Shown piece by piece: positions 2,365 through 41,984 of a stretch of 64,000 bases of DNA. Every line of letters starts with the position of its first letter. Within the stretch, counting starts at the first letter, position 1. This DNA is from an uncultured bacterium (GTDB lineage: Bacteria > Oederibacteriota > Muellerivitia > Muellerivitales > Muellerivitaceae): the NCBI GenBank assembly GCA_964525605.1, contig CAZGKT010000012.1:7771-71770 (forward strand), written 5' to 3'. Below the pieces are notes generated by a model. The model worked only from the letters and a program-made list of their open reading frames with translations. It did not search any database and was not told where the DNA came from. The translations under genes were made by a program, and so were the position numbers.

Positions 2365-3606
2365 TCAAGGATACCTTGGAGAAACGGGCCCCGTGGGTAT
2401 GACATTTGAAGTCACGGGAGGGGTGGGGGTTAAAGCGGGCGAACTCGCCGAAGTTGCACCAGTTGCAAAGCCAATTTGTCCCGGCACGCAGGTCGGAACA
2501 GGAACTGCTAACCAAATCGAGACCGCAGATCCCCAGGACGATTTTTCCCAATTCCAATCAGTCAGCATATTGGGACAAAACTGAACGGTCATGGACCAAG
2601 CCGTGGCCCCCACAACCCCTGGCGTGCTCTTGAGCCAGGCAAAAAGATTGGTATCAAAAGTAGTGTCATCCTGGTTGCAGGCGAAGACGCTGGGTCCCAT
2701 TTCCCCCACCAGAACGGGGTGGGAGGCCAATAGGGTTCCGGGAACCTGGCCGTTCCAGGCACGGTCGGTTATGCCGTGGTCCGCGTAAAAATGGGCCGAA
2801 TAGACAATACCGTTTCCTACGTTGGTGAGTGGATAATTGGCCGCGTGACTCAAGTCCGCGCACCAGGCCAACCCCCCTGCCAGGCAAATATTTTTAGCAC
2901 CCGTAGACCTCACGGCGTTTAAGAGTCCCTGCATGCCCGGGGTCGAAAACCCGGCCCCATCACCCATCCCGCCCTTTTGCCAGAGGGTCCAGGCCGCGTC
3001 GTCATCCATTTTGTTGCTGCTGTAAGGTTCGTTATAAAGGTCGAATAGAACCGCGGGATTATTAGCGTAAAGCCCCGCCAAAGAGCTCCAAAAGGTGACC
3101 GCGTTTTGATCCGCCATGTACTGTTGCTTGGTCCTAGCGTCGGTGCCCCAGGCTCCCCCGCAGGGGGGACTGGCCGTATCCGCTTCCCCCGACCAATGCA
3201 AATCGAGAATGACGTAGGCATTGTGCTTGGAACAAAAATCAACGATATCGGAAATGAACCCTCGGTAAGTGACCAGATCGGCTCCGCCACAGCCGAACCA
3301 AAAATCCTGGTTCATCGGCAGTCGAATAATGTTGGAATGCCAGGCCGTGACGGCCTCTTGGACCGTATCCAGGGGTCTTCCCCACTCGCCGCCGGGGGGG
3401 CCATAGCCGTTACTGCAATATTCCAACCCGGCCACGTTGACCCCCTTCAGTGTGATGGGGCAACCGCTACCAGTGATAACCTGATTGCCTGAAACTAAAA
3501 GCGTGGGAGGAGCCGCGCAGGCTTGAAAGCAAAGGAAGATAATGACCGCCCCCGTCCAAAACGCTCGGGAACAACTCGGCCCTATCCCCCCAAAAATCAT
3601 TGCCAT
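2365..3606 (-). CDS. Secreted glycoside hydrolase family 5 (endo-beta-1,4-glucanase/mannanase type)
   Basis: Signal peptide MAMIFGG...FQACAAP. GH-A clan blocks present: LDLHWSGE, acid/base LYNEPY, nucleophile VLVGEMG. Confidence 0.85.
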   Translation of the reverse strand: MAMIFGGIGPSCSRAFWTGAVIIFLCFQACAAPPTLLVSGNQVITGSGCPITLKGVNVAGLEYCSNGYGPPGGEWGRPLDTVQEAVTAWHSNIIRLPMNQDFWFGCGGADLVTYRGFISDIVDFCSKHNAYVILDLHWSGEADTASPPCGGAWGTDARTKQQYMADQNAVTFWSSLAGLYANNPAVLFDLYNEPYSSNKMDDDAAWTLWQKGGMGDGAGFSTPGMQGLLNAVRSTGAKNICLAGGLAWCADLSHAANYPLTNVGNGIVYSAHFYADHGITDRAWNGQVPGTLLASHPVLVGEMGPSVFACNQDDTTFDTNLFAWLKSTPGVVGATAWSMTVQFCPNMLTDWNWEKSSWGSAVSIWLAVPVPTCVPGQIGFATGATSASSPALTPTPPVTSNVIPTGPVSPRYP

Positions 3607-3663
3607 GGTTATCCCCCGAGGAAAAACAAAGTCAAACCTGACCGTGTCTAGTTTAACAAAACG

Positions 3664-5550
3664 TCAGGGTTTCACCTCAGCCCGAAACGGCGCGGCAGGG
3701 AGGCCGGCACCATTGTAAAGGTTGCATCCAGGATCATCCGCCCAGGCATAACGCGTTCCCTTGGGATGGAACACCCGATCACTCCAAACCACGACTTCCT
3801 TACCCGATATCTTGGCTTGGGCGGGAACATACAGGTTATCTTCTCCCACAATCTCAAATCCAACTAACCGGTCACCCTTTACTTTCAATCCCTTGTCCGC
3901 ATGTTTGAAGGTTACGATCAACTTTTTCCCACTTATTTTCAGCGAGTCGAATAAGGGACCGGAGTAGGGCCCCTTTTTCCCATAGGCTTCATGAAGTGCC
4001 GCGAGGCCTAGGCGATAACCCACATCGATCTTGTCTTTGGGATGTATGGCTTTCGATTCCCCGACATCAATGAGTACCGCCAAACCCGTATGGGGGACGT
4101 CCAGAGCCGCCGCTTGAGCTTCCCGTAATTCGGGCCAGCCGTTTCCCGGCGTGGCATTCGGGTCGTGCCAATTGGGCAATTGGGCGATGATGAAAGGAAA
4201 ATCACCTTCACCCCAGGCCTTTCGCCATCCCTGAATCATGGCGGGGAGAAGTTTTTTGTAATTTTCAGCCTGGCCCACGTTGGTTTCCCCCTGGTACCAG
4301 ATCACGCCGCGCATGCCGTAAGGAATCAAGGGGGCTACCATACCGTTGAACAAGCCGACTGGCCGCATCCCCATGGGTTTCACGCAGGCGTTCAAGCAAA
4401 AACCATTCACCGCTGATAATTGGAGGGGCATGGGTTTTCCCCACCCGCTTTGTTGGAGACTATAAAAAGGAATTTGATAGGATTTCCAATCGGCGGCCGC
4501 CTCGAAAGGTTCCGAGCCATAATTGTCCCAATCCGTGACGATGGGTTGTTCTAACAGGACGTTAAATTTACCCGTGCCCTTCGCCTCAAACTCGATGAAA
4601 TCATAGGCGCTCAAGTCCACGGAGGTGTCATCCGGCGCCAGGGACGTGGTACAGTTCCCCCAACCTCCGGTCTGCACATCCGCCTTCACTTGGCCTACCC
4701 CGGAGTCCACCTGAAATGAAAAAGCGGACCCAGGTTGGGCGTTTGAGGACCAGGCACCAGTGGGAGAGGGGAGCAAGGTGATGGGTTGGTGGGCCGGATT
4801 ATTGGAAGTCAGGCGTAATCCCTTAATCTCCAGTTCCATCCTTTGAAGGCCACTGCGGGCTTTCTGTTCCGAAAGCGATAGCGAATTCCATCCAACCAAA
4901 AGGGGTTTAATGGACGGATTGGTTTCAAAGGCTTCCTCGGGCATCCAGGATTCGATCCAGGTTCCGCCCCAATAGGTTCCTATCATTCCAACAGGAACTT
5001 TCAAATCCTTATGTATTTTCTTAGCGAAATAATAGGCCGCGGCGGAAAAATTCTTGGCTGTGCCCGGATCGCAAACTTTCCAATCCCCGATGGGTTCTTC
5101 CTCGGGTTCGTTTGAAAGACGGCGACCCTGGACAAACCATCGGATGAGAGGGTTATTGGCTTTGGGCACCTCATTCGCCGAATCGCTCGTGTTATTCAGC
5201 GGCAATTCCATATTGGATTGTCCCGCAGCCACCCAGACCTCCCCTACCAGAACATCCCGGATCGTCACGGAACCGGAACCAGAAACCACCAATTCAAAGG
5301 GACCTCCAGCCTTCAGCGAAGGCAAGATGGCCTTCCATTTGCCATCCGATCCGGCCTGGGCCGTGGCCGTTTTGCCATCCATCGTAACCGTGACCGGCTG
5401 GTTGGGATTGTCCTGTCCCCAGACGGGGAGGGGCATCCCACGCTGGAGAACCATGTGGTCCCCGAACAGGGAAGGAAGTTTGATTTGGGCCATGGCCGAA
5501 CCTGACATCAGAAAAATCCAACCGCACAATAGGGTAAAAGGACGGCGCAT
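3664..5550 (-). CDS. SASA/DUF303-family SGNH carbohydrate O-acetylesterase (probable acetyl-mannan/xylan esterase)
   Basis: PSLFGDHMVLQR, VAAGQSNME (GQSN Ser block) and GVIWYQGETN blocks with an inserted beta-sandwich. Signal peptide from M19 (MRRPFTLLCGWIFLMSGSAMA). Track ORF extends to 5604. Confidence 0.8.
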   Translation of the reverse strand: MRRPFTLLCGWIFLMSGSAMAQIKLPSLFGDHMVLQRGMPLPVWGQDNPNQPVTVTMDGKTATAQAGSDGKWKAILPSLKAGGPFELVVSGSGSVTIRDVLVGEVWVAAGQSNMELPLNNTSDSANEVPKANNPLIRWFVQGRRLSNEPEEEPIGDWKVCDPGTAKNFSAAAYYFAKKIHKDLKVPVGMIGTYWGGTWIESWMPEEAFETNPSIKPLLVGWNSLSLSEQKARSGLQRMELEIKGLRLTSNNPAHQPITLLPSPTGAWSSNAQPGSAFSFQVDSGVGQVKADVQTGGWGNCTTSLAPDDTSVDLSAYDFIEFEAKGTGKFNVLLEQPIVTDWDNYGSEPFEAAADWKSYQIPFYSLQQSGWGKPMPLQLSAVNGFCLNACVKPMGMRPVGLFNGMVAPLIPYGMRGVIWYQGETNVGQAENYKKLLPAMIQGWRKAWGEGDFPFIIAQLPNWHDPNATPGNGWPELREAQAAALDVPHTGLAVLIDVGESKAIHPKDKIDVGYRLGLAALHEAYGKKGPYSGPLFDSLKISGKKLIVTFKHADKGLKVKGDRLVGFEIVGEDNLYVPAQAKISGKEVVVWSDRVFHPKGTRYAWADDPGCNLYNGAGLPAAPFRAEVKP

Positions 5551-5664
5551 GGCCAAACCTCCCGGGAAGGATATAAAAGGAAAATGTTTTGGAAGAAAAC
5601 CCATGCGTGCATTTTACTTTTTTTTGTGGGTTTTTGAAAAAGTGTTGGGTGGTAGAACTTCAGC

Positions 5665-6339
5665 TTAGGGTGTCTTTTCCCAGCCAAAGCTATCGGCGTC
5701 CACCACCCCCGGCGAGGTAAACAACGAAGAACCATTCCCGGCGAGCTGAAGGCCCACCTGGTAGACGTTGGAAACATTGGGTGCGGGGGAGGCCTGGTAA
5801 TTCGGTGCGTTCACGTTATACGTCACCTGCATCCATTGGCCGGGAACCAGCTTGACGAAGGTCCCGTTGGCGTATTGATAGGCGCTGTCCTTAAGGAATA
5901 TTTGGGCACCTATCTGGTTGGGAGCGGTCACGACGCCCGACACCAGTTTCACCCACATGGAAAGGGTCATATTGAATAAATTGAGGCCCTGGCCGGAGGA
6001 AGTGATCTGGTAATGGACCGAATATCCGGAAAGGGAAATATAGGTGGTGACACCCGCGTTGACCGAATAAGCCAGGTCAGGAACGGGAATTTCCAAAGCA
6101 TAGGGGCCCTGAAAAGCCTGGGATGTCACGGTCAGGGGCCAAGTTGAGGACAAATTCACCGGACTGGAAGAATCGTAAACCCAACTATCGGTCGTTCCGT
6201 CGTCGAAGGAACCAAAGGAAGCGATGGATGGATTGATCAAGGGGCTGATGGGGCCTGTGACTTTGCCACAGCCTGGCAAGAATAGGCCCAAGCCGATCAA
6301 TGAAAGAAAGGCCCATACGCTCATTGGAGTTTTCATCAT
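5665..6339 (-). CDS. Lipoprotein with beta-rich (CBM-like?) C-terminal domain
   Basis: Lipobox LFLPGC after MMKTPMSVWAFLSLIGLG. ATGA overlap with upstream GH5x2 gene. C-terminal domain compositionally resembles that of lipoprotein 13030..13767. Confidence 0.65.
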   Translation of the reverse strand: MMKTPMSVWAFLSLIGLGLFLPGCGKVTGPISPLINPSIASFGSFDDGTTDSWVYDSSSPVNLSSTWPLTVTSQAFQGPYALEIPVPDLAYSVNAGVTTYISLSGYSVHYQITSSGQGLNLFNMTLSMWVKLVSGVVTAPNQIGAQIFLKDSAYQYANGTFVKLVPGQWMQVTYNVNAPNYQASPAPNVSNVYQVGLQLAGNGSSLFTSPGVVDADSFGWEKTP

Positions 6340-8708
6340 CGGCCTCCCTCCAACTTTTCAGCCTGTAAGACGAACAGGTTCGCGATATTGACATCATCCG
6401 GGTTAAAACTGTTGGCGTCGCTCGAGTCGTGGGGCGCACCCAGCATCCAATAATTAGTGCCATCCCCTCCGGCTGCGTAGAACACCCTCATCATCTCATA
6501 AATCCACTGGGCTTGGTCATAGCCCGGCTTTCCCTTTTCAATGCCGAATTCCTCCATGACCACGGGTTTTTTCAATATTTCATGGGCATCCCGGACATAG
6601 GCGGTCAGGATGGCCGCGAGGGTTTTCGCGTTCCAGCCTGCGCCGTTCTGGGTCGGGTAAACGTGGAAAACGGCGTAATCGATGGAAGGGGACTGGTGGT
6701 CCCGGATAAAGTCCGTGCCCGAATAGTGGGTCCCGTTATTGGCCCTCAAGCCCTCTTCTCCGGTCGTCACCAACTGCTGGACACCCGTTTTTTTCAAGAA
6801 GCCCGCCATCTGGTCGATCCATACCGCCAGAAAATTCCCTGAGGTGTCCTTCTCATCCCGGGGCTCGTTCATCAAATCCCAGGCCATGATCGTCGGGTCG
6901 TTCTTGTAGGCGACCCCGGTGACGGTGTTGACGCGGTTGACCAGCATGGCCATCCAGTCCTGGAACCCCTTCTCAATGGCAGGGTTATCGAAAAAATCGT
7001 TCTTGACGGAGGATCCGTACCACTTGGCCCATTGGGGAGCCCCGCCAAAATCGTTCCAGTTTCCTGACAGGGCCAGGACCAAACGGATATGGTGCTTCCC
7101 GGCCGAGGCGATAACATGGTCCAGAAGCTGCAAGTTCGATTCCACGTATTGGCCGGGGGCTGTCTGGAAGTAGCGGAGTTTTTCCCAATCATCGGGAACG
7201 GGCTTGGACGATTCCCCGAAGGCCCAAGTGCGCATCACGGTAAATCCCATTTTCTCGGCTTCGCTGAAGATGTATTCCACTGAGTCGGGCATGTAATGAA
7301 TGTAATAATTATTGGTGCCCACGAAGCGGAACGGCTTATCCCCGTCGTAAAAGCCGGTTCCCTTGACCGTGATGAAATTTTTCGACCAGGGCTGGGAAGG
7401 CGCGATTAATCGCTTCAGGGGGGGCACCTCAAAGGAAAGAATATTGGAATACTGGTATCCTGAACCGGAGGCGGCCTTGACCTGAAAGTCGTAATGTTTC
7501 CCCGTCGAGAGGTTTTTCAAAAGAATCTGTTGGCTCAAGGCGGGCTGGGAAAGACCCGTTTCATGGTTCAAGAGTCCGTTTTCCCCATACCGGACGGAGA
7601 CTTGCGCCGATGTTGAGAGGACAACCGAAACCGCTTCACTAGCACCCCAATCCACGACAGGTTCCCCCTGGGGTGAGGCGGATACGCCGGTGAAGAGCCC
7701 GCTACCAACCAGAACAGCTGACTTGGATATGGCGGTCAGGGATGTTTGCAGGTCGGTCCAATGGACCGTTTGGGTAGGATCAATGGAGACCATGTAACCA
7801 GCCCCCGAATAAGCTTCTGGGGCCTGGGAATTGGCGGCGATGGGCACGACAGGCTTGCCCATTTGCTGGGCCCAGGTACCCGGGTTCGGCGCGTTGGGAG
7901 TCATCTCTTCCAATATAAAATCAACACCCGGTTGGTCCGCCAATTCCACAGCGGAAAGGCCGGGAGCGCCGGAATCCAAGGAAAGTACCACCTTCGCATT
8001 CGTTCCAAGGCTTTTTACGAAGGAAGCCATGGAAGTCGCCCATTGATCCGCGATGGCCGGATCGCCGAGTTCATAGCGGGGCGCATCGATAAGGTTGAAA
8101 GCCCAGATATTGGGATCCTTCGCGTAAGAAATGCCGGTCACCTTGTTCACCCGGCCCAGGAGCATTTGGACGTATTGCCGATACCAGGCCTTACACTGGA
8201 AATCGAGATAGAAAACCCCCGGATTGTGACTCCCAGCCCAAGCGGCGTAATATCCCTTTCCCCCTTCGGGGCCCGAATCGGCACACAAATCGAGGACCAG
8301 CTTCAACCCGGCTTTTCCGGCCGCGGCTGTCATCTGGTCCAGCTTGGCCAGGGCGGCCTCGTCCCAGGTTCCGGGACCGGTTTGAAGGGGCATAGGCGCT
8401 TTACCCAGGGAAAATGCGTTGGTTTTTACCACCCACACCCCGGCAGCCTTGGCCTGGGAGAAAAAGGCGGTGAGCTGGTCGGGGGACATGCGGTATAGCC
8501 CAGGGGCTTCCAATCCAGTCAGGTAAACCGGTTTGCCATCGGTCTGAAGGGAAAGACCGTCCACCTGCAAACCTCGGGCGGAAGTCGCGACAGCGGCGGT
8601 AAGGGAAGCTTTTCCTTTTTTCTTCTTGGCCGCCGCCTGTGCCCGCGGAACCGCCAGCGCCAAGACCAGGAAGACCACCATCAGCGGGATTAATGCTTTT
8701 GTTTTCAT
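6336..8708 (-). CDS. Secreted tandem GH5-like protein (two TIM-barrel domains separated by an FN3-like segment)
   Basis: Signal peptide MKTKALIPLMVVFLVLALAVPRAQA. ATG at 8708 preferred (AGGA 8 nt upstream); track ORF starts at GTG 8747. Domain 2 has TWAF / WDLMNEPR / VMEEFG. Domain 1 is paralogous but reads FNLIDAPR. Confidence 0.85.
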   Translation of the reverse strand: MKTKALIPLMVVFLVLALAVPRAQAAAKKKKGKASLTAAVATSARGLQVDGLSLQTDGKPVYLTGLEAPGLYRMSPDQLTAFFSQAKAAGVWVVKTNAFSLGKAPMPLQTGPGTWDEAALAKLDQMTAAAGKAGLKLVLDLCADSGPEGGKGYYAAWAGSHNPGVFYLDFQCKAWYRQYVQMLLGRVNKVTGISYAKDPNIWAFNLIDAPRYELGDPAIADQWATSMASFVKSLGTNAKVVLSLDSGAPGLSAVELADQPGVDFILEEMTPNAPNPGTWAQQMGKPVVPIAANSQAPEAYSGAGYMVSIDPTQTVHWTDLQTSLTAISKSAVLVGSGLFTGVSASPQGEPVVDWGASEAVSVVLSTSAQVSVRYGENGLLNHETGLSQPALSQQILLKNLSTGKHYDFQVKAASGSGYQYSNILSFEVPPLKRLIAPSQPWSKNFITVKGTGFYDGDKPFRFVGTNNYYIHYMPDSVEYIFSEAEKMGFTVMRTWAFGESSKPVPDDWEKLRYFQTAPGQYVESNLQLLDHVIASAGKHHIRLVLALSGNWNDFGGAPQWAKWYGSSVKNDFFDNPAIEKGFQDWMAMLVNRVNTVTGVAYKNDPTIMAWDLMNEPRDEKDTSGNFLAVWIDQMAGFLKKTGVQQLVTTGEEGLRANNGTHYSGTDFIRDHQSPSIDYAVFHVYPTQNGAGWNAKTLAAILTAYVRDAHEILKKPVVMEEFGIEKGKPGYDQAQWIYEMMRVFYAAGGDGTNYWMLGAPHDSSDANSFNPDDVNIANLFVLQAEKLEGGR

Positions 8709-8716
8709 GATCATTC

Positions 8717-11700
8717 CTAAAACTTCCCGGTCAGCGAGAATTGCCACATGTTGAGTGTTTGAAGGCTATTGTCGTCCTCCCAATAGTCGAGGAAACTTGG
8801 AAGGCCGTAGGTCAGGGAGGCCAAAACGGTGTTGTTCATAAAATATTTGCTGAAGCTGGCGTAAATATTGGTGTACTGGCCGAAGCGGTATCCGGTCTGG
8901 TCCACGTATTTCACATCCCCCTTGAGCCAGGTGTTGCCCCAGAACTTGTACTTCAACCCCGCGTCGTAGGTGAAGACTTCCCACCATTCGGTAACCGCAT
9001 CCCGGAATATGCCGGTAGCGAGGAACTGGGGCGTGATCTTGTAGTGAAGCTCATAGTTGGAAGTGATTTGAAGGGCCCGGGTGGGAATTTCCGGATTGGC
9101 CAAGGTGGGGTCACCCACGTTGTAACCGTCGTCGTAAAAGTACCACCAAAAATTCATGTAGAGGGGCGACTTGTCGGTGTTGTTGGTCAGGATGGTTCGG
9201 ATCCCGTAGTTACTATTGGTATTCGTCATGGAGGCGTAGTCGTAATACTGGATGTTTAAGTTGAGGCCCGTCAAAAAATCATTCCAAAAAGGGCTCCAAG
9301 TTTCCATGTCTTTGATGAGTTGGAGGGTATCGGTGGCCCAAACGATCTGGAAGTTATTCTGGATGGCTCCCGAGGAGGCCCCGGCAACCTCGTAAGGCAT
9401 GAAAAAGTAAATCGGGTTGACCGTGCGCCCCGCCGTCAATTTAAACGCGCCGAGTTGGTAATTGAGGCCTACGTCATAAGCCTGGTTATTGATGGAGGGA
9501 AGATCGTAAACGCTTCCCTGGTATGCCGTGTTCACGCTTTCGGCAAATTCCCCGAAAACCTGCAGATGAATGTCCCTCAAATAGCCGTTGAGGTCGGCCT
9601 CGTAGGTCTTGATGTCCGCTTCCACGTTGGACGTCAGGGGATTGCTTCCCGGCACGTTGCCATAGCGTCCGTCCAACAGGCCCGCGCCCAGCCACCAGTC
9701 CTCCACAGCGACGGATTTGAAACGCAAGAGATAACCCGCTGAATTTCCCAGGGAGAGGGGAGTGGTGCCATATTGGGCAAAACCCGAGGCCTGAAGCATC
9801 CCCACATTGCCAATGGAATAATGGTCCTCCGCCCCGTAAATCTGGCTGCCCAGGGAAGGACCGCTCAGCAATTGCATGGGATCATCCGAACCGCTCAATT
9901 GGTCGCCCGTGAAAAGGGCCAATTCATTGCCCCCGGCACGGACATCCAGCCGGATTTTTTCCAAATTAAACTGGGCCTGACTGTTTTGCGTTCCCATCAC
10001 CGAACCCTGCACCACCAGTTGTAAATGATCGGAAGGGTTGATTTTGAAGGATATATCCTCCCCGACGACCCCCTCCACCCGTTGGGAACCCGTCCCCAAC
10101 CAGCGAATGTTGTCCAGGTAAAAGGTGCCCCGTCCCGGAAGTCCCGCGACACCCGAAACTTTGAAGGCGATCACGTGAACCTGATTCGCGTTACGCAAGG
10201 TATCCCAAAATCTCCAGGCCGTTCGGGCGCTTTTGAAGTTGTTGCCTTGCAAGGGAATATCCAAATTATGGTTCCACCCGCAATTGAGAGTGACCGAGAG
10301 GGACTCGATGTCTTCCCCGTTGCTGTTTCCGTTGTAGGTCCCACCCGTGTAAAACTGCAGGTTAATGGCCAGGGGCTGTCCGGGGTTGAAGGCGTCGAAG
10401 TCGATATGGGTATAGGGGGAAACATCGATGGAACTGCCGGGGGGCCCGGGGGGGGTGTATTGGAAGATAGGGTTGTTGACGGCGGCGCCTGCGGCGAAGT
10501 TGCAGAGGTAATCCACTTCCAGGGAATGGCTTCCATCGGTCGCGTAAGCATTGCTTCGGGTCAAAATAACTCCCGTGTTGGCCTCCCAGGAAGTGATACT
10601 TCCCTCAAAGCTCTCAAAAGGAGTGTACTGCAGGGACCGGACGGTTAATTGGGTTTCAGACGAGACGCCAATCACCTGTCCCACATCCCGGGAACCTGCG
10701 GCGGGCCCGATCAAATCCCGTTCGATCGTCCGGAGGTTGGACATGAAAACATGCCCGTCGCCCAGGTGGTGGGGATGGATGTTGACGATGACCGTACGGA
10801 TGTCTTCCCGGGTTCTCAGGTAATCGGTCGAGGACCAGTTGGTTTCCAGCGATTTGAAAATGGCTTCGGAAATGTTCACCTTCACATTGCGGTTCCAGCC
10901 AGGCTTCAACGAGTAATCGATGCTTTCCTGCCATTCCGTATTGGGTCCGGTTTGAACGGCCAAGGTGAAAACAACCGAGTAGGATTGGGGATTATAAAAG
11001 TCGAACTCAACGGCAAGGACATTGCTCCAATCCACGAATTTATTTTTCACGAATTGGCAGGCCTGGTCATCGGCGAAGGTGCGGTACCGCAAGTCCACCG
11101 CATATACCCCCTGGGGGTTGTCCCGGGTTTTGAGCGTCGTGTAACCCGCCAAAACCGCGAAAGAATTGCTTCCCGCGCTGGTGGAAGCTTCCCAGCCATC
11201 CGCGGAAGCGTTATAGAGCGGGTCCCATAAAACCGTTCGTCCCTGAATTTCCCCCTTGGGGGCGGCGGACTTGCCCATCGCCACATTGTCCGTTCCGGTG
11301 ACGCGGACATTGTCAAAGTAGGCCGAGCCCGTCAAAGACCCATTATGGTAAAACCCGATGAAAAGGCTTTTAACCTGGTCCAGTTCCTCGGCATAGGCTG
11401 TGTTTTTCCACTGGCTGTCTGCGGTTTTGAAGTTCTTGGTCTTTAAGTAAAAGGTCACGTTTCGGTTCCATCCCGGCTTGACGGAAACGGGATTGGCTTC
11501 CTGCCATAAGAAGGTATCCCCTGTTTTCAGGACCATCCCGGCCTGGAGGGTTTCCTTCAGGGGGTTATAAATGTCCACCTTGACCGCGTCGGAATTTTTA
11601 AGGTTCAGGCTTTCATTTTGTTCGAAGCCATACCAGGCCTGCTGACCGTCGCCGTCGAAATCGAAGGACACCTTCAGCATATGGGTGCCTTCGGTGGCGT

Positions 11701-13012
11701 TCTTGGACTGGACGATGGTCGCCCCGGTTGATTTGTAAGTCCCCCCCATGGCGGCCCAGGGAGTGGTTCCCTTCTCGAAACCCTCCAGGAGGTGGTCGGT
11801 GCCCTCGACTGCCGGAAGGAAGGGCACGGCGGCACGAACGATTTTTTCCAACTCAGGCGCTTGGTCTGTAAGCAACCGCACGTTATCCACGACCACGAAG
11901 CCCTTGCCAATCTGGTGGGAAGCGAAGGAAAGCCCGAATTTCCGTACCGCGCCTAGTCCCACGAGGGGGGCCGTATTGATGTAGTTGCTGGCGGCGCACT
12001 TGTAGATCTTGGATTTCAGGGAGATGGCCACGTTCCGGTTCCAACCGGGCTTCAGGGTTTGGGAAGCGGATTCGTAATAATCCCACTTGGCGCCTGTATT
12101 CAACACGATAGTGGTATCCATCGGGTCTTTCCCCGGCACGAAAACGTCATACATCACGCCATTGGCCGCCGAAAGATCCATGTCGGCCTCCAGGACGAAA
12201 GTGCCCCGGTCATCCGGCTGTTTGTTTTCAAAATTCAAAAAGGCCGCATGGGTTCCTTCCGTGGTCTGGACCGTTTTCACATCCGTATCGGTGGCCGAAG
12301 AATAGTCCTTATCGGGCGCGAAGGGGCAACTCCCGTCCTCAAAACCCGTTACCAGGACCGGGCTTCCCGTAACCAAGTCGGCGGCGGTGAATTTCAGGAC
12401 TTTGCTTTCATCCGCCCCGGTCAAGCGAAGGTCATCCATGTAGAGGTAGCCTTCCCCCTCCTGCTGGGTCTCAAACACAAGGGCCGCTTGCTTCAAGTCG
12501 GACTTGGGATTCAAGGAGGTTATGTCGAAGACAACATTCCGGTTCCACCCCGGAACCAGGGTCGTTTCGGGCGACTTGAGCCAATTCCAGGAGGGGCCCT
12601 GTTTGAGAATGACGGAGCCGGTGAACGTCAAGGGAGAGGAATTGTAAAAATCCACCGTCAGGGAGGTGGCGCCGGTCAGGTCCCCCACCTGGGAAGTGGA
12701 AAAGGCAACCCTTCCACCCCCCTTGGACAGGATGAAATGGCCTCGGTAACCGTAACGGCCGCTGGTAGGAAAATCGGGGGAGATGATTCCGCCATCCATG
12801 ACGCTGGCCTCGAACTGGGTGCCCCAATAGGTGTTACCCAGTTCGAAATCTTCCCAGATGAATGGTTGAGCCGGGGCCGATAAAGGCGATGGAGGCGGCG
12901 GTTCCTGTGCGTAAGAGACGTGGGGCGGTAGACTGCAAGCCAACACAAAAAAGGCGAAGCTCCGAAAAGCCGCGCCAATTTTAAAAGGATATGAATTCAA
13001 TCTGTGACTCAC
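8717..13012 (-). CDS. Giant outer-membrane protein: signal peptide + five tandem PGWNRNV-modules + C-terminal beta-barrel
   Basis: 1431 aa. Signal peptide KIGAAFRSFAFFVLACSLPPHVSYA-QE. Motif PGWNRNV at aa 154, 322, 513, 704 (degenerate CGWNHNL at 911). Last ~450 aa have alternating amphipathic beta pattern ending ...SLTGKF (terminal Phe). Confidence 0.8.
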   Translation of the reverse strand: MSHRLNSYPFKIGAAFRSFAFFVLACSLPPHVSYAQEPPPPSPLSAPAQPFIWEDFELGNTYWGTQFEASVMDGGIISPDFPTSGRYGYRGHFILSKGGGRVAFSTSQVGDLTGATSLTVDFYNSSPLTFTGSVILKQGPSWNWLKSPETTLVPGWNRNVVFDITSLNPKSDLKQAALVFETQQEGEGYLYMDDLRLTGADESKVLKFTAADLVTGSPVLVTGFEDGSCPFAPDKDYSSATDTDVKTVQTTEGTHAAFLNFENKQPDDRGTFVLEADMDLSAANGVMYDVFVPGKDPMDTTIVLNTGAKWDYYESASQTLKPGWNRNVAISLKSKIYKCAASNYINTAPLVGLGAVRKFGLSFASHQIGKGFVVVDNVRLLTDQAPELEKIVRAAVPFLPAVEGTDHLLEGFEKGTTPWAAMGGTYKSTGATIVQSKNATEGTHMLKVSFDFDGDGQQAWYGFEQNESLNLKNSDAVKVDIYNPLKETLQAGMVLKTGDTFLWQEANPVSVKPGWNRNVTFYLKTKNFKTADSQWKNTAYAEELDQVKSLFIGFYHNGSLTGSAYFDNVRVTGTDNVAMGKSAAPKGEIQGRTVLWDPLYNASADGWEASTSAGSNSFAVLAGYTTLKTRDNPQGVYAVDLRYRTFADDQACQFVKNKFVDWSNVLAVEFDFYNPQSYSVVFTLAVQTGPNTEWQESIDYSLKPGWNRNVKVNISEAIFKSLETNWSSTDYLRTREDIRTVIVNIHPHHLGDGHVFMSNLRTIERDLIGPAAGSRDVGQVIGVSSETQLTVRSLQYTPFESFEGSITSWEANTGVILTRSNAYATDGSHSLEVDYLCNFAAGAAVNNPIFQYTPPGPPGSSIDVSPYTHIDFDAFNPGQPLAINLQFYTGGTYNGNSNGEDIESLSVTLNCGWNHNLDIPLQGNNFKSARTAWRFWDTLRNANQVHVIAFKVSGVAGLPGRGTFYLDNIRWLGTGSQRVEGVVGEDISFKINPSDHLQLVVQGSVMGTQNSQAQFNLEKIRLDVRAGGNELALFTGDQLSGSDDPMQLLSGPSLGSQIYGAEDHYSIGNVGMLQASGFAQYGTTPLSLGNSAGYLLRFKSVAVEDWWLGAGLLDGRYGNVPGSNPLTSNVEADIKTYEADLNGYLRDIHLQVFGEFAESVNTAYQGSVYDLPSINNQAYDVGLNYQLGAFKLTAGRTVNPIYFFMPYEVAGASSGAIQNNFQIVWATDTLQLIKDMETWSPFWNDFLTGLNLNIQYYDYASMTNTNSNYGIRTILTNNTDKSPLYMNFWWYFYDDGYNVGDPTLANPEIPTRALQITSNYELHYKITPQFLATGIFRDAVTEWWEVFTYDAGLKYKFWGNTWLKGDVKYVDQTGYRFGQYTNIYASFSKYFMNNTVLASLTYGLPSFLDYWEDDNSLQTLNMWQFSLTGKF

Positions 13013-13029
13013 TTGCTTAAATTAATAAC

Positions 13030-13767
13030 TCAGTAATTCCAATTGAAAATATCGACGATCGCCTGAGAAGCCGTGCCCGAGCCATTGGTGTTGATTTGAA
13101 CCCCGATCAAGACGACCTGCGTGGGATCAAAGCTTCCCACCACGGCACCGGGTACGGAATAAGTCAAGGCCACGCATCCCGGTCCCGCGTTGATCCAGTT
13201 GCTGTAGGAAGAGGCCCAACTTTGGCCGGCACCGTCCTGGACGAAAACATACCCCCCTTGGGGGTAGGTGGCGTTGAACCCCGAAGCAAAGGAAATGACC
13301 GAGCTGATGTTTTTGCCGGCCAAGTTGGTAGCAGTCCCGAGGTTGTATTGGATGTTGGCCTGTTGACTGGTTGCCGTAAAACCGATCGTCACTTCCAACG
13401 CCCCCATATTCGGGGAACAGGAAGCGCTTGGATTGAATCCTGTGGTTACCGACACGCCCGCCGTGGATCCGCTCGCGTTGTAGTTCCATCCGGTGATGGA
13501 GGCCGCCGAACTAAAATAGTAGCCGGGCATCGGGGTCGCGGTCGGCATACCGGTAGGTGTGATCGTGGGAGACATCGTGACCGTGGGGGTGTTGGTCGGT
13601 GGAGGAACGGTCGGCGTTGGATAACCCCAATTGGGCTCGTTGGGATTGTTAACGCCGCATCCGGTGTAAAACAATGGAACGAGGGAAACCACCGCGATAA
13701 ACGCCAAAAACATGAGGACGGCCGAACGTTTCAAGGGAGTCTCCGTGAACCCGGGGCAAATTTTCAA
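13030..13767 (-). CDS. Lipoprotein with Pro/Thr-rich linker and beta-rich C-terminal domain
   Basis: Lipobox LFYTGCG. Linker PTPTVPPPTNTPTVTMSPTITPTGMPTATPMP. 17 nt upstream of OMP gene. Start uncertain (TTG 13767 or ATG 13713). Confidence 0.6.
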   Translation of the reverse strand: MKICPGFTETPLKRSAVLMFLAFIAVVSLVPLFYTGCGVNNPNEPNWGYPTPTVPPPTNTPTVTMSPTITPTGMPTATPMPGYYFSSAASITGWNYNASGSTAGVSVTTGFNPSASCSPNMGALEVTIGFTATSQQANIQYNLGTATNLAGKNISSVISFASGFNATYPQGGYVFVQDGAGQSWASSYSNWINAGPGCVALTYSVPGAVVGSFDPTQVVLIGVQINTNGSGTASQAIVDIFNWNY

Positions 13768-13850
13768 CGGTTTCAGTAAAGCGTTTTAATGAGGCTATCA
13801 CCCACGCCAAGAAACTGTCAAGAAAGTATTGCTTTTCATTGAAGCGCCCG

Positions 13851-14891
13851 TTAACCCCTCGCTCTCGAGGGGGCCTTGGCCGTGGATTCACGGACCACCA
13901 GCTCAACCGGGACCTCCAGCCGGACGGCCTTTTGGTTCCCGTTTTCAATCATCTGCAATACCCGGTTGACGCCCATCTTGCCCATGTACTCCTTTGCCAC
14001 GCTGATGGTCGTCAGGGGCGGATTCGTGTAATTGCTCATCGTGATATTGTCGAAGCCGACCACGCTCAAGTCTTGGGGCACCTTTCGGCCCGTCTCGTGG
14101 GCCGCCCTTAAAACCCCGGCGGACATCTCGTCGTTGACGCAAAAGAGGGCGGTCAAGTCCTTCCGTTTGACAAGAATTTCTTTCGCCCTTGCGTAGCCTT
14201 CCCAAAAATTCAAGTTGTCGGCCTTGAAGATCAGGCCATCGGAGGGCTCAATGCCGTTTTTCACCAGCGCCGATTTCCAACCCGCCAACCTTTCCTGGAT
14301 GCTGGGACGATCCCAAGCCGCGGCCAGGATACCGATTTGCTTGTGCCCAAGCCGGACGAGGTGTTCGACCGCCAGCACCCCGCCCTTGCGGTTGTCGATC
14401 TGAATCGTGTCGATTCCTTTCAAATGGGGAAAGTTGTCGATGGCCGCAATGGGGATTTTCCGCTTTTTCATGTCGGCCGCCATCTTGGGATCGCACCGGC
14501 CTATCACCAGGATTCCATCCACGTTTTTCTCTCGGACGATCTTGGGAAGGCTGGGATAGCCCTGGTAAACCGATTCAATATAGGAAAAGTATAGGTTGAA
14601 ACCCTGGGCCAGGGTTTCCTTCACCACGCCTTCGATCACGAAGGAATAGAAATGGTTCGAGATGGGCTGGTCCTCGAGGTAAAAAATCACCCCCAGATTG
14701 CGCGTTCTTTTCCCCGCCAAGCCCGCCGCGAGGGCGCTCGGGTGGTAGTCCAGCTTTTCCGCCGCCGCCATCACTTTGCGCTGGACCGCCTGGCTGATGA
14801 CCATGTCGGCCCGGCGGTTGAGAACGAAGGATACGGTGGTGATGGACACCCCCGCCGCCTTGGCCACGTCCTTGATTGTCACATGCTTCAT
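13851..14891 (-). CDS. LacI-family transcriptional regulator
   Basis: N-terminal HTH MKHVTIKDVAKAAGVSITTVSFVLN followed by periplasmic-binding-protein-like sugar-binding fold. Confidence 0.9.
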   Translation of the reverse strand: MKHVTIKDVAKAAGVSITTVSFVLNRRADMVISQAVQRKVMAAAEKLDYHPSALAAGLAGKRTRNLGVIFYLEDQPISNHFYSFVIEGVVKETLAQGFNLYFSYIESVYQGYPSLPKIVREKNVDGILVIGRCDPKMAADMKKRKIPIAAIDNFPHLKGIDTIQIDNRKGGVLAVEHLVRLGHKQIGILAAAWDRPSIQERLAGWKSALVKNGIEPSDGLIFKADNLNFWEGYARAKEILVKRKDLTALFCVNDEMSAGVLRAAHETGRKVPQDLSVVGFDNITMSNYTNPPLTTISVAKEYMGKMGVNRVLQMIENGNQKAVRLEVPVELVVRESTAKAPSRARG

Positions 14892-15116: not shown

Positions 15117-15132
15117 ACTAAAACCTTTTAGT
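15117..15132. promoter_or_regulatory. 16-bp palindrome ACTAAAACCTTTTAGT, candidate LacI-family operator
   Basis: Inverted repeat (7/8 per half) 56 nt upstream of the GH130 start, in the LacI/GH130 divergent intergenic region next to a TATATT -10-like element. Half-site ACTAAAAC recurs at ~17669 upstream of GH36. Confidence 0.3.
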
Positions 15133-15187: not shown

Positions 15188-16114
15188 TTGGCTAATGAGA
15201 CCGTGTTTAAGCGTTATTCCCAGAATCCCATCATCACCTCGGCGGCCGTGCCTGACGCGCACGTCATCATGAACAGCGCCGTGATCCGGTTCAAAGGGGC
15301 TTACGCCGGGGTCTTCCGGGTGGACACCCAGGAAATGGTCATGGAACTGCATGTGGGTTTCAGCCAGGACGCCCTCCATTGGGACATCCAGCCCCAGCGC
15401 CTGAAGCTTTACGGCAAGGTCCCAAAGGCCATTCCCTGCGGGATGGGTTACGACCCCCGCATCACCCAGATCGGGAATACCTATTACATCACCTGGTGCT
15501 ATTACCCCACCCCCGGACCCTCCATCGGATTGGCCTCGACCCAGGATTTCAAGAAGTTCACCCAACTTTCGACCATTCTCCTGCCCTACAACCGAAACGC
15601 GGTGCTCTTCCCCCGCAAGATCAACGGAAAGTTCGCCTTGCTTCACCGGCCTTCCGATAACGGCCACACGCCTTTCGGCGATATCTTCTACGCCACGAGC
15701 CCCGACATGATCCATTGGGGAAACCATGAGTTCGTTTTTGGAAGAACCAGCGGCTGGCAAATGACGAAGGTCGGGGCCGGCCCCACGCCCATCGAGACCA
15801 AAGAGGGGTGGGTCATCCTCTATCACGGCGTCCATACCACCTGTAACGGGTTTGTTTATTCCATGGGCGGCGCGATCCTCGATTTGGACCAGCCTTGGAA
15901 AGTGAAGTATCGGACGAAGCGATATCTGATGGCGCCCACCGAGCTCTACGAACGGGTGGGTTTCGTGCCCAATGTGGTCTTCCCCACCGCGGCGATCCTG
16001 GATGAAAAGACCAACCAGATCGATGTCTATTACGGCGCGGCCGACACCTGCGTTTGCCTGGCCTCGGCCGACTTCGGCGAGGTCGTGAAGTTTATCAAGA
16101 AGAACAGCTATTAA
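15188..16114 (+). CDS. Glycoside hydrolase family 130 (beta-mannoside phosphorylase/hydrolase)
   Basis: MANETVFKRYSQNPIIT...LHWD...YDPRI...LLHRPSD...YYGAADTCVCLA; typical GH130 (DUF377) five-bladed propeller blocks. Confidence 0.8.
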   Translation: MANETVFKRYSQNPIITSAAVPDAHVIMNSAVIRFKGAYAGVFRVDTQEMVMELHVGFSQDALHWDIQPQRLKLYGKVPKAIPCGMGYDPRITQIGNTYYITWCYYPTPGPSIGLASTQDFKKFTQLSTILLPYNRNAVLFPRKINGKFALLHRPSDNGHTPFGDIFYATSPDMIHWGNHEFVFGRTSGWQMTKVGAGPTPIETKEGWVILYHGVHTTCNGFVYSMGGAILDLDQPWKVKYRTKRYLMAPTELYERVGFVPNVVFPTAAILDEKTNQIDVYYGAADTCVCLASADFGEVVKFIKKNSY

Positions 16115-17612: not shown

Positions 17613-17734
17613 GAATAACCTCCGTTGATGGCCGATTATATCAAAGGGATATTTATTACCAATAAAAGACTAAAACGATTTAATCTTTTCAGGTTATTCT
17701 ACGGTTCGATTACCTCTATCCTATCGGGATAACC

Positions 17735-41716: not shown

Positions 41717-41984
41717 GGGAGTAGGGTTGATACCCGATGACCAACAGGTTCGACTAAATCGAACATAGGTCGATGTCAGCCAGTTTTATCGTTGAACTTG
41801 GGCAGATTTCCCCTTGAAAAATGAATTTATATAACCGCATGGGTAAACCTGTCGTAGTGTCCGGGGAACCGAGGCATGACCTGGAGCCCGGCCTCTTTTT
41901 GAAACCAGTGGTATTATTACAGTAATTCCCAATTACGCCGTTAGGTGAATGGGTTCGATCCTATATATGACTGGAGAATATGAC

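What the first reader, a model, noticed from the sequence alone, without database searches (positions are those of the whole stretch)
2365..14891. LacI-linked seven-gene beta-mannan/glucomannan operon built around a non-Sus outer-membrane capture apparatus
Seen in sequence:
- The minus-strand genes are separated by -4 to +60 nt: lipoprotein (13767) -> giant OMP -> tandem GH5 -> lipoprotein -> SASA-type acetylesterase -> GH5 (2365).
- A LacI regulator lies 83 nt upstream on the same strand.
- GH130, an orphan solute-binding protein and GH36 alpha-galactosidase follow on the other side.

The enzyme set (endo-GH5, acetylesterase, GH130 mannoside phosphorylase, GH36) is the established toolkit for acetylated galactoglucomannan. 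The two lipoproteins share Pro/Thr linkers and similar beta-rich C-terminal domains.

Inference: the two-lipoprotein + OMP arrangement is an analogue of Bacteroidota SusD/SusC logic implemented with entirely different proteins.
Basis: partly seen in the sequence, partly recalled or inferred. Interest (0 to 1): 0.55.

Follow-up and report, generated by a model that had tools for sequence, protein, structure and literature searches.

The report
Mannan-use locus with novel outer-membrane protein
An uncultured soil bacterium of candidate phylum FCPU426 has a LacI-controlled gene cluster for digesting plant beta-mannan, built around a previously undescribed outer-membrane protein that fuses five sugar-binding modules to a very large beta-barrel and is always encoded next to a half-dead tandem mannanase and a sugar-binding-type lipoprotein.

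Summary
The genes, order, spacing (-4 to +60 nt), the LacI gene 83 nt upstream and the GH130/SBP/GH36 flank are all as described. The layout recurs in about 10 independent FCPU426-type metagenomic loci at 26-75% identity.

The mannan assignment is supported:
- a GH5_7 endo-mannanase
- a GH130_2 manno-oligosaccharide phosphorylase
- an AgaA-type GH36
- a CE20-like esterase

The "giant OMP" (1431 aa) has a signal peptide, five homologous PF21253/CBM27-like repeats, and a 460-aa C-terminal beta-barrel of about 23 predicted strands ending in Phe. The barrel has no Pfam family. Only 17 clusters match it among 1.84 billion representatives.

- The "tandem GH5" is a catalytically dead GH5_7 copy plus a live one.
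- The third GH5 is glucanase-like and accessory.
- The lipoproteins are homologous CBM-fold beta-sandwiches, SusE/F-like rather than SusD-like.
- There is no plug or TonB-receptor domain, so this is not SusC-like.
- The conserved core is barrel protein, tandem GH5 and lipoB, not seven genes.

Conserved 16-bp palindromes mark three LacI-controlled promoter regions. Which side of the membrane the repeats face, and whether the barrel conducts sugars, remain unresolved.

The parts
13851..14891 (-). LacI/GalR-family repressor (346 aa)
   Evidence: Pfam LacI HTH plus Peripla_BP_3/1. NCBIfam matches to LacI-family models are all below the equivalog cut-offs. Conserved beside the cluster in L003, L005, L006, L009 and L010.
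13775..13790 (.). Operator-like 16-bp palindrome AGTAAAGCGTTTTAAT between LacI and lipoA
   Evidence: The same motif sits at the orthologous LacI-lipoA gap in L003, L005, L006 and L010. About 0.03 chance matches are expected per 64 kb.
15117..15132 (.). Operator-like palindrome ACTAAAACCTTTTAGT in the divergent LacI/GH130 region
   Evidence: Orthologous sites lie upstream of GH130/LacI in L003, L006, L009 and L010.
17669..17684 (.). Operator-like palindrome ACTAAAACGATTTAAT in the divergent SBP/GH36 region
   Evidence: An orthologous site lies between GH36 and SBP in L003.
13030..13767 (-). lipoA: lipoprotein with a Pro/Thr linker and a beta-rich C-terminal domain homologous to lipoB
   Evidence: Invariant lipobox Cys, and a linker of variable length, up to about 100 aa in L005/L009. 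hhalign to lipoB 97.7%. No Pfam hit even at E<=10.
8717..13012 (-). Giant outer-membrane protein (1431 aa): signal peptide, five CBM27-like repeats, C-terminal beta-barrel
   Evidence: Only 13 homologues were found among 5.8 billion sequences. The C-terminal Phe is invariant.
10088..12871 (-). Five homologous repeats D1-D5 (about 170-185 aa each, PGWN(R/H)N motif), PF21253 Mann_GBD_bact
   Evidence: Pfam 54.8 bits against a cut-off of 27. Pairwise hhalign 99.4-100%. Alignment A4. Weak similarity to the CBM27 structures 1pmh and 1of3.
8717..10105 (-). C-terminal beta-barrel domain (residues 970-1431, plus stop codon)
6336..8714 (-). Secreted tandem GH5 protein (792 aa from ATG 8714): dead GH5_7-like domain, Fn3-like domain, active GH5_7 endo-mannanase
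7758..8585 (-). N-terminal GH5_7 paralogue lacking both catalytic Glu residues (pseudo-enzyme)
   Evidence: 32% identical to the C-terminal domain, E 6e-31. The NEP motif is replaced by DAP, DTP, DSP, DDP or NGT, and the nucleophile position is not conserved, in all orthologues. In the most distant relative (L021) the motif reads CER and the nucleophile is also lost.
6411..7382 (-). C-terminal GH5_7 endo-beta-1,4-mannanase domain with both catalytic motifs intact
   Evidence: E 1e-47 to 1e-55 to the solved GH5 mannanases 8gf3, 3pz9 and 1rh9. The NEP and EEFG motifs align and are invariant in orthologues.
5665..6339 (-). lipoB: lipoprotein with a CBM-fold beta-sandwich; its start overlaps the GH5GH5 stop by 4 nt
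3664..5604 (-). Secreted CE20-like SGNH acetylesterase with an inserted CIA30/CBM-like domain
   Evidence: Pfam SASA plus CIA30. E 1e-97 to 1e-111 to 9ega, 9h4u and 7kmm. The family acts on several different substrates (PMC13450560).
2365..3606 (-). Secreted GH5 of the glucanase type (accessory)
   Evidence: Pfam Cellulase. The nearest solved relatives are 5a8m and cellulases, E about 1e-10, with no mannanases among them. Present only in the window, L001/L004, L011 and L016-L018.
15188..16114 (+). Cytoplasmic GH130_2-type beta-1,4-manno-oligosaccharide phosphorylase
   Evidence: E 2e-110 to TM1225, and about 1e-105 to Uhgb_MP and the beta-1,4-mannooligosaccharide phosphorylase 5ayd. No signal peptide.
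16317..17612 (-). Lipoprotein solute-binding protein of an oligosaccharide ABC importer, with no permease genes nearby
   Evidence: Pfam SBP_bac_1/8. Conserved lipobox. The nearest solved relative is an arabino-oligosaccharide binder, E 1e-39.
17735..19924 (+). Cytoplasmic GH36 alpha-galactosidase (AgaA/AgaB type)
   Evidence: E 6e-221 to 4fnq/4fnr. Pfam Melibiase plus the GH36 N- and C-terminal domains.

Best explanation
This is a LacI-repressed utilisation locus for beta-mannan or acetylated galactoglucomannan, from a diderm bacterium of candidate phylum FCPU426.

Its conserved heart is an envelope module of tightly coupled genes:
- lipoA, a CBM-fold lipoprotein on a long Pro/Thr tether
- the giant protein, with five CBM27-like repeats fused through about 12 residues to a large (22-24-strand class) outer-membrane beta-barrel
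- a secreted protein with a dead GH5_7 domain (probably kept as a mannan-binding or docking module) and a live GH5_7 endo-mannanase
- lipoB, a second CBM-fold lipoprotein

Proposed mechanism (inferred, not shown):
1. The repeat array and the lipoproteins hold mannan chains at the outer membrane through multivalent binding.
2. The associated GH5_7 domain cuts the chains.
3. The barrel, the only outer-membrane component in the regulon, lets the oligosaccharides into the periplasm without TonB energy.
4. The CE20-like esterase, and the glucanase-type GH5 where present, trim acetyl groups and glucose-containing stretches.
5. The lipoprotein SBP hands galactosyl-manno-oligosaccharides to an ABC importer encoded elsewhere.
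6. In the cytoplasm, GH36 removes galactose and GH130_2 phosphorolyses the mannan backbone.
7. LacI binds 16-bp palindromes at three promoter regions and is presumably released by a manno-oligosaccharide.

I favour the repeat array facing outward (about 55%) over a periplasmic array (about 35%).
For: Shown by tools:
- Family assignments.
- Five homologous repeats in the giant protein.
- Barrel fold, with an invariant C-terminal Phe.
- Sec signal peptides on lipoA, the giant protein, GH5GH5, lipoB, the esterase, the accessory GH5 and the SBP, but none on GH130, GH36 or LacI.
- The N-terminal GH5 domain is dead in every orthologue, while the C-terminal one is intact.
- LipoB has a CBM fold whose best match is a mannanase CBM, and lipoA is homologous to it.
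- Giant-GH5GH5-lipoB stay adjacent, with gaps of -11 to +14 nt, down to 26-27% identity.
- Every one of the 17 barrel-family clusters that is full length carries the barrel at the C-terminus, and nearly all have PF21253 repeats in front of it.
- Operator-like palindromes sit at three intergenic regions and at the orthologous positions of five other loci. They are absent from loci that lack LacI.
- No plug, TonB-receptor, porin or other outer-membrane family is found in the locus.

For outward orientation: in the model, the short connections (2-5 aa) and long connections (5-22 aa) alternate so that strand 1 starts on the long-loop side when the C-terminal strand ends in the periplasm.
Against: - No experiment exists: nothing on binding, activity, localisation or transcription.
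- The repeats are only weakly similar to solved mannan-binding CBM27s (E 7e-4 to 0.025). Remote PF21253-like relatives sit next to unrelated enzymes. Mannan specificity of the array is therefore inferred from context.
- Every well-studied outer-membrane protein I know of that has a large N-terminal domain joined directly to a C-terminal barrel (LptD, BamA, PgaA, BcsC, ushers) keeps that domain in the periplasm. This rests on my own knowledge.
- The linker here is only about 12 residues.
- No secretion signal beyond Sec is visible on GH5GH5.
- A 23-strand barrel would be without bacterial precedent, and the N-terminal third of the model has lower confidence (pLDDT 59-84).
- The alignment used for modelling held only 13 sequences.
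- The diderm status of FCPU426 is inferred only from this barrel.
Confidence: 0.55

Rival explanations
1. Periplasmic-ratchet ("selfish") import. The barrel is a wide pore through which a single mannan chain threads. The five CBM repeats hang in the periplasm and stop the chain sliding back out. The tandem GH5, the esterase and both lipoproteins (anchored in the inner leaflet of the outer membrane) all act in the periplasm.
For: - It needs no protein-sorting route beyond Sec, Lol and BAM.
- GH5GH5, the esterase and the accessory GH5 carry only Sec signal peptides.
- The linker between repeat D5 and the barrel is short.
- From my own knowledge, N-terminal domains of LptD, PgaA, BcsC, BamA and ushers are periplasmic.
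- The barrel falls in the 22-24-strand size class of ushers, wide enough for a polymer.
Against: - The alternation of loop lengths in the model places the start of strand 1 on the long-loop side.
- Long Pro/Thr linkers, and a C-terminal sorting-like domain on orthologues of the accessory GH5, point to extracellular life.
- As far as I know, no system is known to import an uncut polysaccharide through a passive pore.
Confidence: 0.3
2. Display scaffold or translocon only. The barrel exports and anchors its own CBM array, in the manner of an autotransporter or usher, and perhaps also the partner lipoproteins and mannanase. It is not the route of sugar entry. Oligosaccharides would enter through unrelated porins or TonB-dependent transporters encoded elsewhere.
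For: - The passenger-then-barrel order matches type Va autotransporters.
- The best structural match is the FimD usher barrel, which passes folded Ig-like domains similar in size to a CBM.
- Strand 1 could be a segment that crosses the lumen.
Against: - There is no autotransporter or usher sequence family, and no alpha-helical linker.
- The regulon contains no other outer-membrane candidate for uptake.
- A barrel of about 460 aa is far larger than an anchor needs to be.
Confidence: 0.2
3. Exopolysaccharide export. The giant protein is a PgaA/BcsC-like secretion porin for a self-made beta-mannan-type polymer, and the GH5 acts as a trimming hydrolase in the way BcsZ does.
For: From my own knowledge, the architecture (a periplasmic polysaccharide-binding domain plus a C-terminal barrel, with a hydrolase next door) resembles known polysaccharide export systems. 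Large glycosyltransferase genes lie elsewhere in the window.
Against: - No synthase or glycosyltransferase lies in or beside the conserved module in any locus.
- The module shares LacI operators with the catabolic genes GH130, GH36 and SBP.
- There is no TPR domain.
Confidence: 0.03

Closest known systems
Bacteroidota Sus-like polysaccharide utilisation loci (SusC/SusD with SusE/F-type SGBPs and a surface endo-enzyme), including the mannan PULs
   Same: One regulated locus combines an outer-membrane barrel, lipid-anchored glycan binders, an endo-acting backbone enzyme, debranching and deacetylating enzymes, and a regulator. The downstream enzyme set GH36 plus GH130 is as in the Bacteroides ovatus galactomannan PUL (cited in PMC13450560).
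   Different: - There is no plug or TonB-dependent receptor domain, no SusD fold and no hybrid two-component or ECF regulator.
- The binding modules are fused to the barrel itself.
- The endo-enzyme is not a lipoprotein and carries a dead twin domain.
- Inner-membrane uptake is by an SBP-dependent ABC system, as in Gram-positive loci.
Gram-positive-type mannan utilisation loci (LacI regulator, lipoprotein SBP with ABC importer, GH130, GH36, acetyl esterases), for example in Roseburia intestinalis (from my own knowledge; the esterase pair is described in bioRxiv 10.1101/788067, listed)
   Same: LacI control, a lipoprotein SBP, cytoplasmic GH130 and GH36, deacetylation before import, and a secreted modular endo-mannanase.
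   Different: Those organisms have no outer membrane, so they have nothing equivalent to the barrel-plus-CBM protein or its lipoproteins.
Specific sugar porins (LamB maltoporin, ScrY, ChiP chitoporin, CymA)
   Same: Passive outer-membrane barrels co-regulated with an SBP-dependent ABC importer for oligosaccharides. All appear among the structural matches.
   Different: - Those porins have 14-18 strands and form trimers or monomers, with no large fused binding array.
- There is no sequence relationship.
- The barrel here falls in the 22-24-strand class.
Large barrels that work with a partner protein inside or through them (LptD/LptE; FimD/PapC ushers)
   Different: - There is no sequence family match.
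- No usher plug or chaperone is present.
- The cargo and function are unrelated.
- Whether a lipoprotein plugs this barrel is unknown.
CBM27 mannan-binding modules of Caldicellulosiruptor ManA and Thermotoga Man5 (1pmh, 1of3)
   Same: A beta-sandwich of about 170-180 aa with weak but repeated sequence similarity. They also match the lipoB model structurally.
   Different: Similarity is marginal. In the known cases the module is appended to a soluble enzyme, not to a membrane barrel, and not in five copies.

Membership tests
SusC-like TonB-dependent transporter | N-terminal plug domain (PF07715) inside a 22-strand TonB-dependent receptor barrel (PF00593), with a TonB box | tested here: not met
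   Pfam finds only PF21253 in the whole protein at E<=0.01, and nothing in the barrel at E<=10. TBDT barrels match only as generic barrels, at 9-12% identity.
SusD/RagB | Lipoprotein of about 60 kDa with an alpha-helical TPR-like SusD fold | tested here: not met
   LipoA and lipoB are 22-26 kDa lipoproteins. The lipoB model is an all-beta sandwich that matches CBMs. No SusD Pfam hit.
Surface glycan-binding proteins of the SusE/F type (a functional class) | Lipid-anchored, built of CBM-like beta-sandwich domains, and encoded beside the outer-membrane transporter | tested here: met
Surface glycan-binding proteins of the SusE/F type (a functional class) | Exposed on the cell surface and binds the target glycan | not testable with these tools
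   Needs binding assays and localisation experiments.
Classical autotransporter (type Va) | C-terminal 12-strand barrel (PF03797) with an alpha-helical linker running through its lumen | tested here: not met
   No Pfam hit. The domain has about 460 aa and about 23 strands, and no helix precedes strand 1.
Chaperone-usher pathway usher | Usher family sequence (PF00577) with a plug and N- and C-terminal domains, and an adjacent chaperone gene | tested here: not met
GH5 subfamily 7 endo-beta-1,4-mannanase (C-terminal domain of the tandem protein) | Close similarity to characterised GH5_7 enzymes, with an intact NEP acid/base motif and an intact nucleophile Glu | tested here: met
   E 1e-47 to 1e-55 to 8gf3, 3pz9 and 1rh9, with NEP and EEFG aligned. 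Both motifs are invariant in orthologues. The CAZy subfamily label for those structures comes from my own knowledge. dbCAN was not available.
GH5 subfamily 7 (N-terminal domain of the tandem protein) | Both catalytic Glu residues present | tested here: not met
   It is a paralogue of the C-terminal domain. The NEP motif is replaced by DAP, DTP, DSP, DDP or NGT, and the nucleophile is not conserved, in all orthologues.
GH130_2 beta-1,4-manno-oligosaccharide phosphorylase | Closest relatives are TM1225, RaMP2 and Uhgb_MP, rather than the GH130_1 mannosylglucose phosphorylases or the beta-1,2 enzymes | tested here: met
   E 2e-110 to 2e-104, against 1e-20 to 1e-44 for the other groups. NCBIfam scores fall below the equivalog cut-offs.
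CE20 carbohydrate esterase | A split SGNH (SASA) domain with an inserted beta-sandwich, and similarity to XacXaeA (7kmm) | tested here: met
   E 8e-97 to 2e-111 across two matched stretches. Pfam SASA plus CIA30. Acetyl-mannan as the substrate is inferred only, because the family acts on several substrates.
LacI/GalR repressor | N-terminal HTH_LacI domain plus a periplasmic-binding-protein-like effector domain, binding palindromic operators | tested here: met
   Domains present. Conserved 16-bp palindromes lie at regulated promoter regions in six loci. Actual binding and the effector are untested.
PF21253 Mann_GBD_bact / CBM27 | Sequence membership above the curated threshold | tested here: inconclusive
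   PF21253 is met (54.8 bits against a cut-off of 27). The link to solved CBM27 structures is only marginal (E 7e-4 and 0.025). Ligand specificity is untested.

The most novel reading that the evidence does not exclude
The giant protein founds a new class of outer-membrane glycan importer: a self-displaying "CBM-porin".

Its five mannan-binding modules would face outward, joined directly to a barrel of unusual topology. That topology is either odd-numbered (23 strands) or 22 strands with the first strand running through the lumen.

Together with a dead-plus-live mannanase and CBM lipoproteins, it would form a TonB-independent capture, cleavage and import machine. This would be an outer-membrane solution to polysaccharide foraging evolved independently of the Sus-type (SusC/D) systems and of TonB-dependent transporters generally.
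Probability: 0.3. Interest if true: 0.8.

Novelty: new variant of a known kind. Interest (0 to 1): 0.6.

Why it matters
How diderm bacteria outside the Bacteroidota capture polysaccharides and move them across the outer membrane is poorly known. A 2026 review of glycoside transporters treats only TonB-dependent transporters as an outer-membrane transporter class, and mentions a porin only as the maltoporin step of maltose uptake (PMC13543919).

This locus offers a concrete, compact and testable alternative from a nearly unstudied candidate phylum. It consists of a barrel with its own CBM array, a pseudo-enzyme domain that has apparently been kept as a binding or docking module, and CBM lipoproteins.

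If confirmed, it would:
- add a new outer-membrane protein family
- provide a new marker for mannan degraders in soils and wetlands
- supply possible parts (the repeat array, the dead GH5 domain) for glycan-binding or surface-display engineering

Tried and rejected
- **RNA genes.** Rfam (gathering thresholds) and tRNA scans of the window found nothing.
- **Promoters and terminators.** Consensus scans gave no more hits than shuffled sequence, so they say nothing about operon boundaries.
- **Look-up of P0001.** An exact look-up of the NCBI-called version of the giant protein found no record.
- **AlphaFold database.** The afdb50 fold library was unavailable, so the barrel could only be compared with solved structures.
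- **Repeat profile search.** Searching the 5.8-billion-protein set with the repeat profile returned only six short fragments and no informative architectures.
- **Remote repeat relatives.** Relatives found in Paenibacillus, Bacillota and Planctomycetota (L012-L015) sit next to unrelated genes (a GH123-like enzyme, an SBP, a GTPase). They do not help assign ligand specificity.
- **T9SS sorting domain.** I tested whether orthologues of the accessory GH5 end in a T9SS sorting domain. Only a sub-threshold hit appeared (E 0.056).
- **Frameshifted domain.** I looked for a frameshifted C-terminal domain downstream of the window's GH5 and found none.
- **ABC permease genes.** None were found downstream in orthologous loci.
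- **Hidden 24th strand.** An alternating-hydrophobicity profile on the alignment showed none.
- **Literature.** Searches for a CBM-barrel fusion, and for FCPU426 or Goldbacteria envelope biology, found nothing relevant.
- **Rejected families.** SusC, SusD, autotransporter, usher and LptD membership were all rejected on the tests listed under membership.

Full report
**Observation**

- GH5, 2365-3606
- SASA-type esterase, 3664-5604
- small lipoprotein, 5665-6339
- tandem GH5, 6336-8747
- a 1431-aa protein, 8717-13012
- second small lipoprotein, 13030-13767
- LacI, 13851-14891

On the other side lie GH130 (15188-16114, +), a solute-binding protein with no permease genes nearby (16317-17612, -) and GH36 (17735-19924, +).

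The gaps are 83, 17, about 2, -4, 60 and 57 nt. The 2-nt value assumes the ATG at 8714, which is the start that gene callers chose in a 100%-identical contig.

Pfam confirms every family call. No RNA genes are present.

**Origin and conservation**

The giant protein has only 13 homologues among 5.8 billion clustered proteins. A scan of one genome per species placed them in MAGs labelled candidate division FCPU426. Most of these carry MFD-prefixed isolate names. A few are unclassified bins.

FCPU426 is a rare-biosphere candidate phylum that 16S data link to Goldbacteria (PMC7031533; PMC10434106).

- In L003, L005, L009 and L010 (55-75% identity), the order LacI-lipoA-giant-GH5GH5-lipoB is kept together with the divergent GH130/SBP/GH36 genes. 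The esterase follows lipoB in L003, L005 and L009.
- L001/L004, L006, L007 and L008 keep the core.
- The most distant relatives (L011, L020, L021/L022; 26-27% identity) still have giant-GH5GH5 followed by a 245-aa lipoprotein, with 1-2 nt gaps. That lipoprotein is weakly similar to lipoB.

The evolutionarily fixed unit is therefore giant + tandem GH5 + lipoB, usually preceded by lipoA. The esterase and the third GH5 are accessories.

**The giant protein**

The ORF from the GTG start has a Sec signal peptide, as does every orthologue when its ORF is extended. The database version, which starts at Met72, loses it.

Residues 48-975 form five mutually homologous repeats of about 170-185 aa, each with an invariant PGWN(R/H)N motif (hhalign 99.4-100%; alignment). 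They match PF21253, "Mannanase, galactose-binding domain-like", above threshold. They match the mannan-specific CBM27 structures 1pmh and 1of3 only marginally.

Residues 970-1431 have no Pfam match even at E<=10. AlphaFold2, run on a 13-sequence alignment, gives an all-antiparallel meander of 23 strands (pLDDT 79.5, pTM 0.68).
- Foldseek likewise returns only generic 22-24-strand barrels.
- The chain ends in an invariant Phe, the usual signature of BAM substrates (my own knowledge).

A profile of the barrel alone, searched against 1.84 billion cluster representatives, found only 17 proteins. Every full-length one carries the barrel at the C-terminus of a protein of about 1220-1390 aa. All but one of the seven full-length proteins scanned (P0037) show PF21253 repeats; in P0036 the match is below threshold.

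This is a rare protein family with a fixed architecture and no description in the literature I could search.

**The tandem GH5**

The C-terminal domain is a typical GH5 endo-beta-1,4-mannanase. It matches 8gf3, 3pz9 and 1rh9 at E 1e-47 to 1e-55, with the NEP and EEFG catalytic motifs aligned. That these structures belong to subfamily 7 is from my own knowledge.

The N-terminal domain is its paralogue (32% identity, E 6e-31). In every orthologue, however, the acid/base NEP motif is replaced by DAP, DTP, DSP, DDP or NGT, and the nucleophile position is not conserved.

A catalytically dead GH5_7 copy conserved over such distances is most simply explained as a retained binding or docking module. 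That is an inference.

An Fn3-like domain separates the two halves. FCPU426 orthologues carry a poly-Lys tract just after the signal-peptide cleavage site. I have no explanation for it.

**The lipoproteins**

Both have an invariant lipobox Cys.
- LipoA has a Pro/Thr linker whose length varies from about 20 to about 100 residues.
- LipoB has a conserved CGKV(T/S)GPISPLxNP segment after the Cys.

They therefore resemble SusE/F-type glycan binders, not SusD. The lipoB family has 12 members in the whole database.

**The other enzymes**

- GH130 groups with the beta-1,4-manno-oligosaccharide phosphorylases TM1225, Uhgb_MP and 5ayd (E about 1e-105 to 1e-110). It does not group with the mannosylglucose or beta-1,2 enzymes.
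- GH36 is of the AgaA/AgaB type (E 6e-221).
- The esterase is CE20-like, with an inserted CIA30/CBM-like domain. CE20 acts on several substrates, so acetyl-mannan as its substrate is inferred from context.
- The third GH5 is nearest to 5a8m and to cellulases (E about 1e-10), with no mannanase among its relatives. It plausibly serves the glucose-containing stretches of glucomannan, but its substrate remains open.
- The SBP is a lipoprotein of the oligosaccharide-binding type.
- GH130, GH36 and LacI lack signal peptides. All other products have one.

**Regulation**

Three 16-bp palindromes of the form A(C/G)TAAA(A/G)(C/G)(C/G)NTTTA(A/G)T lie in exactly three places:
- the LacI-lipoA gap (13775)
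- the LacI/GH130 divergent region (15117)
- the SBP/GH36 divergent region (17669)

The same pattern occurs at the orthologous intergenic positions in L003, L005, L006, L009 and L010. It does not occur in the loci that lack LacI. About 0.03 matches per 64 kb are expected by chance.

This supports a LacI regulon of three transcription units. It also suggests that the lipoA-to-GH5 unit has its own promoter, so LacI need not be part of the operon. Consensus promoter and terminator scans were uninformative.

**Mechanism**

Shown:
- the architecture
- the restricted, tightly coupled gene module
- the compartment signals
- the enzyme families

Inferred:
1. The module binds mannan through multivalent contacts.
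2. The live GH5_7 domain cuts it.
3. The barrel passes the products. It is the only outer-membrane component in the regulon.
4. The products are then deacetylated, imported by the SBP-dependent ABC system, stripped of galactose and phosphorolysed.

The main open point is topology. In the model, short connections (2-5 aa) and long connections (5-22 aa) alternate. If the C-terminal strand ends in the periplasm, strand 1 then begins on the long-loop side. This would put the repeats outside, only about 12 residues from the barrel.

That implies either an odd-numbered barrel or a first strand that runs through the lumen of a 22-strand barrel. Both would be unusual. Against this, the known outer-membrane proteins with an N-terminal domain fused directly to a barrel keep that domain in the periplasm (my own knowledge), and the N-terminal third of the model is less confident. 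An alternating-hydrophobicity profile found no hidden 24th strand.

My estimates are outward-facing about 55%, periplasmic "ratchet" about 35%, and other about 10%. Whether the barrel is a conduit, a translocon and anchor, or both cannot be decided here.

**Comparison and novelty**

In function the locus is a polysaccharide utilisation locus. It combines a Gram-positive-style inner half (LacI, lipoprotein SBP, GH130, GH36) with an outer-membrane half that is not Sus, not a TonB-dependent transporter, not a classical porin, not an autotransporter and not an usher.

I class it as a new variant of a known kind, containing a new outer-membrane protein family. The Sus-analogue interpretation is only partly supported.

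Noticed in passing
window 30957-39863 (+): A 2968-aa ORF with GH94 supersandwich and catalytic domains plus a glucoamylase-like domain. It looks like a cyclic beta-1,2-glucan synthase-type giant enzyme.
   Followed up: no
window 23125-27276 (-) and 27481-29637 (+): A 1383-aa fusion of three glycosyltransferase modules (a DXD sugar-binding region plus two GT4). It lies next to a NodU/CmcH-type carbamoyltransferase that has an unassigned, beta-rich C-terminal extension of about 170 aa.
   Followed up: no
window 41949-43304 (+) and 44656-47949 (-): A bacterial serpin, and a 1097-aa STAND (NB-ARC) NTPase with TPR repeats.
   Followed up: no
window 50695-52077 (-); 52762-53910 (+); 62782-63822 (-); 1676-2269 (+): An alginate-lyase-family protein with TPR repeats, two adenylate/guanylate cyclase genes (one with a PAS domain), and a PilZ-domain protein just downstream of the cluster.
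   Followed up: no
window about 8600-8650 (residues about 33-49 of ORF 6336-8747) and orthologues in L001, L003, L005, L006, L009: A poly-Lys tract (for example AAAKKKKGK) follows directly after the predicted signal-peptide cleavage site of the tandem GH5 in FCPU426 members. It is absent from the most distant relative, L021. Its function is unknown; a charge-based retention or sorting signal is one possibility.
   Followed up: partly
window 2365-2420; L001 17140-18906; L011 8088-9737: The window's accessory GH5 stops right after its Pro/Thr linker (...GPVSPRYP*). Orthologues continue into a C-terminal beta domain of about 90 aa that weakly resembles a T9SS sorting tail (E 0.056). No frameshifted remnant was found downstream.
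   Followed up: partly
window 12799-13012: The database version of the giant protein (1360 aa) starts at internal Met72 and so lacks the signal peptide. The GTG-start ORF, and all extended orthologues, have one. This mis-annotation would hide the protein from secretome and outer-membrane predictions.
   Followed up: yes
L005 19540-22096; L021 1104-3916: A DUF4912 gene plus a GH57 branching-enzyme gene lie near the module, both in an FCPU426 locus and in the most distant relative. This hints that the unclassified bins carrying the 26-27% identical modules belong to a related lineage.
   Followed up: no
L004 (CAVYRH010000004.1): A MAG labelled "uncultured proteobacterium" carries the module at 56% identity, with FCPU426-type synteny. 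The taxonomic label is probably wrong.
   Followed up: no
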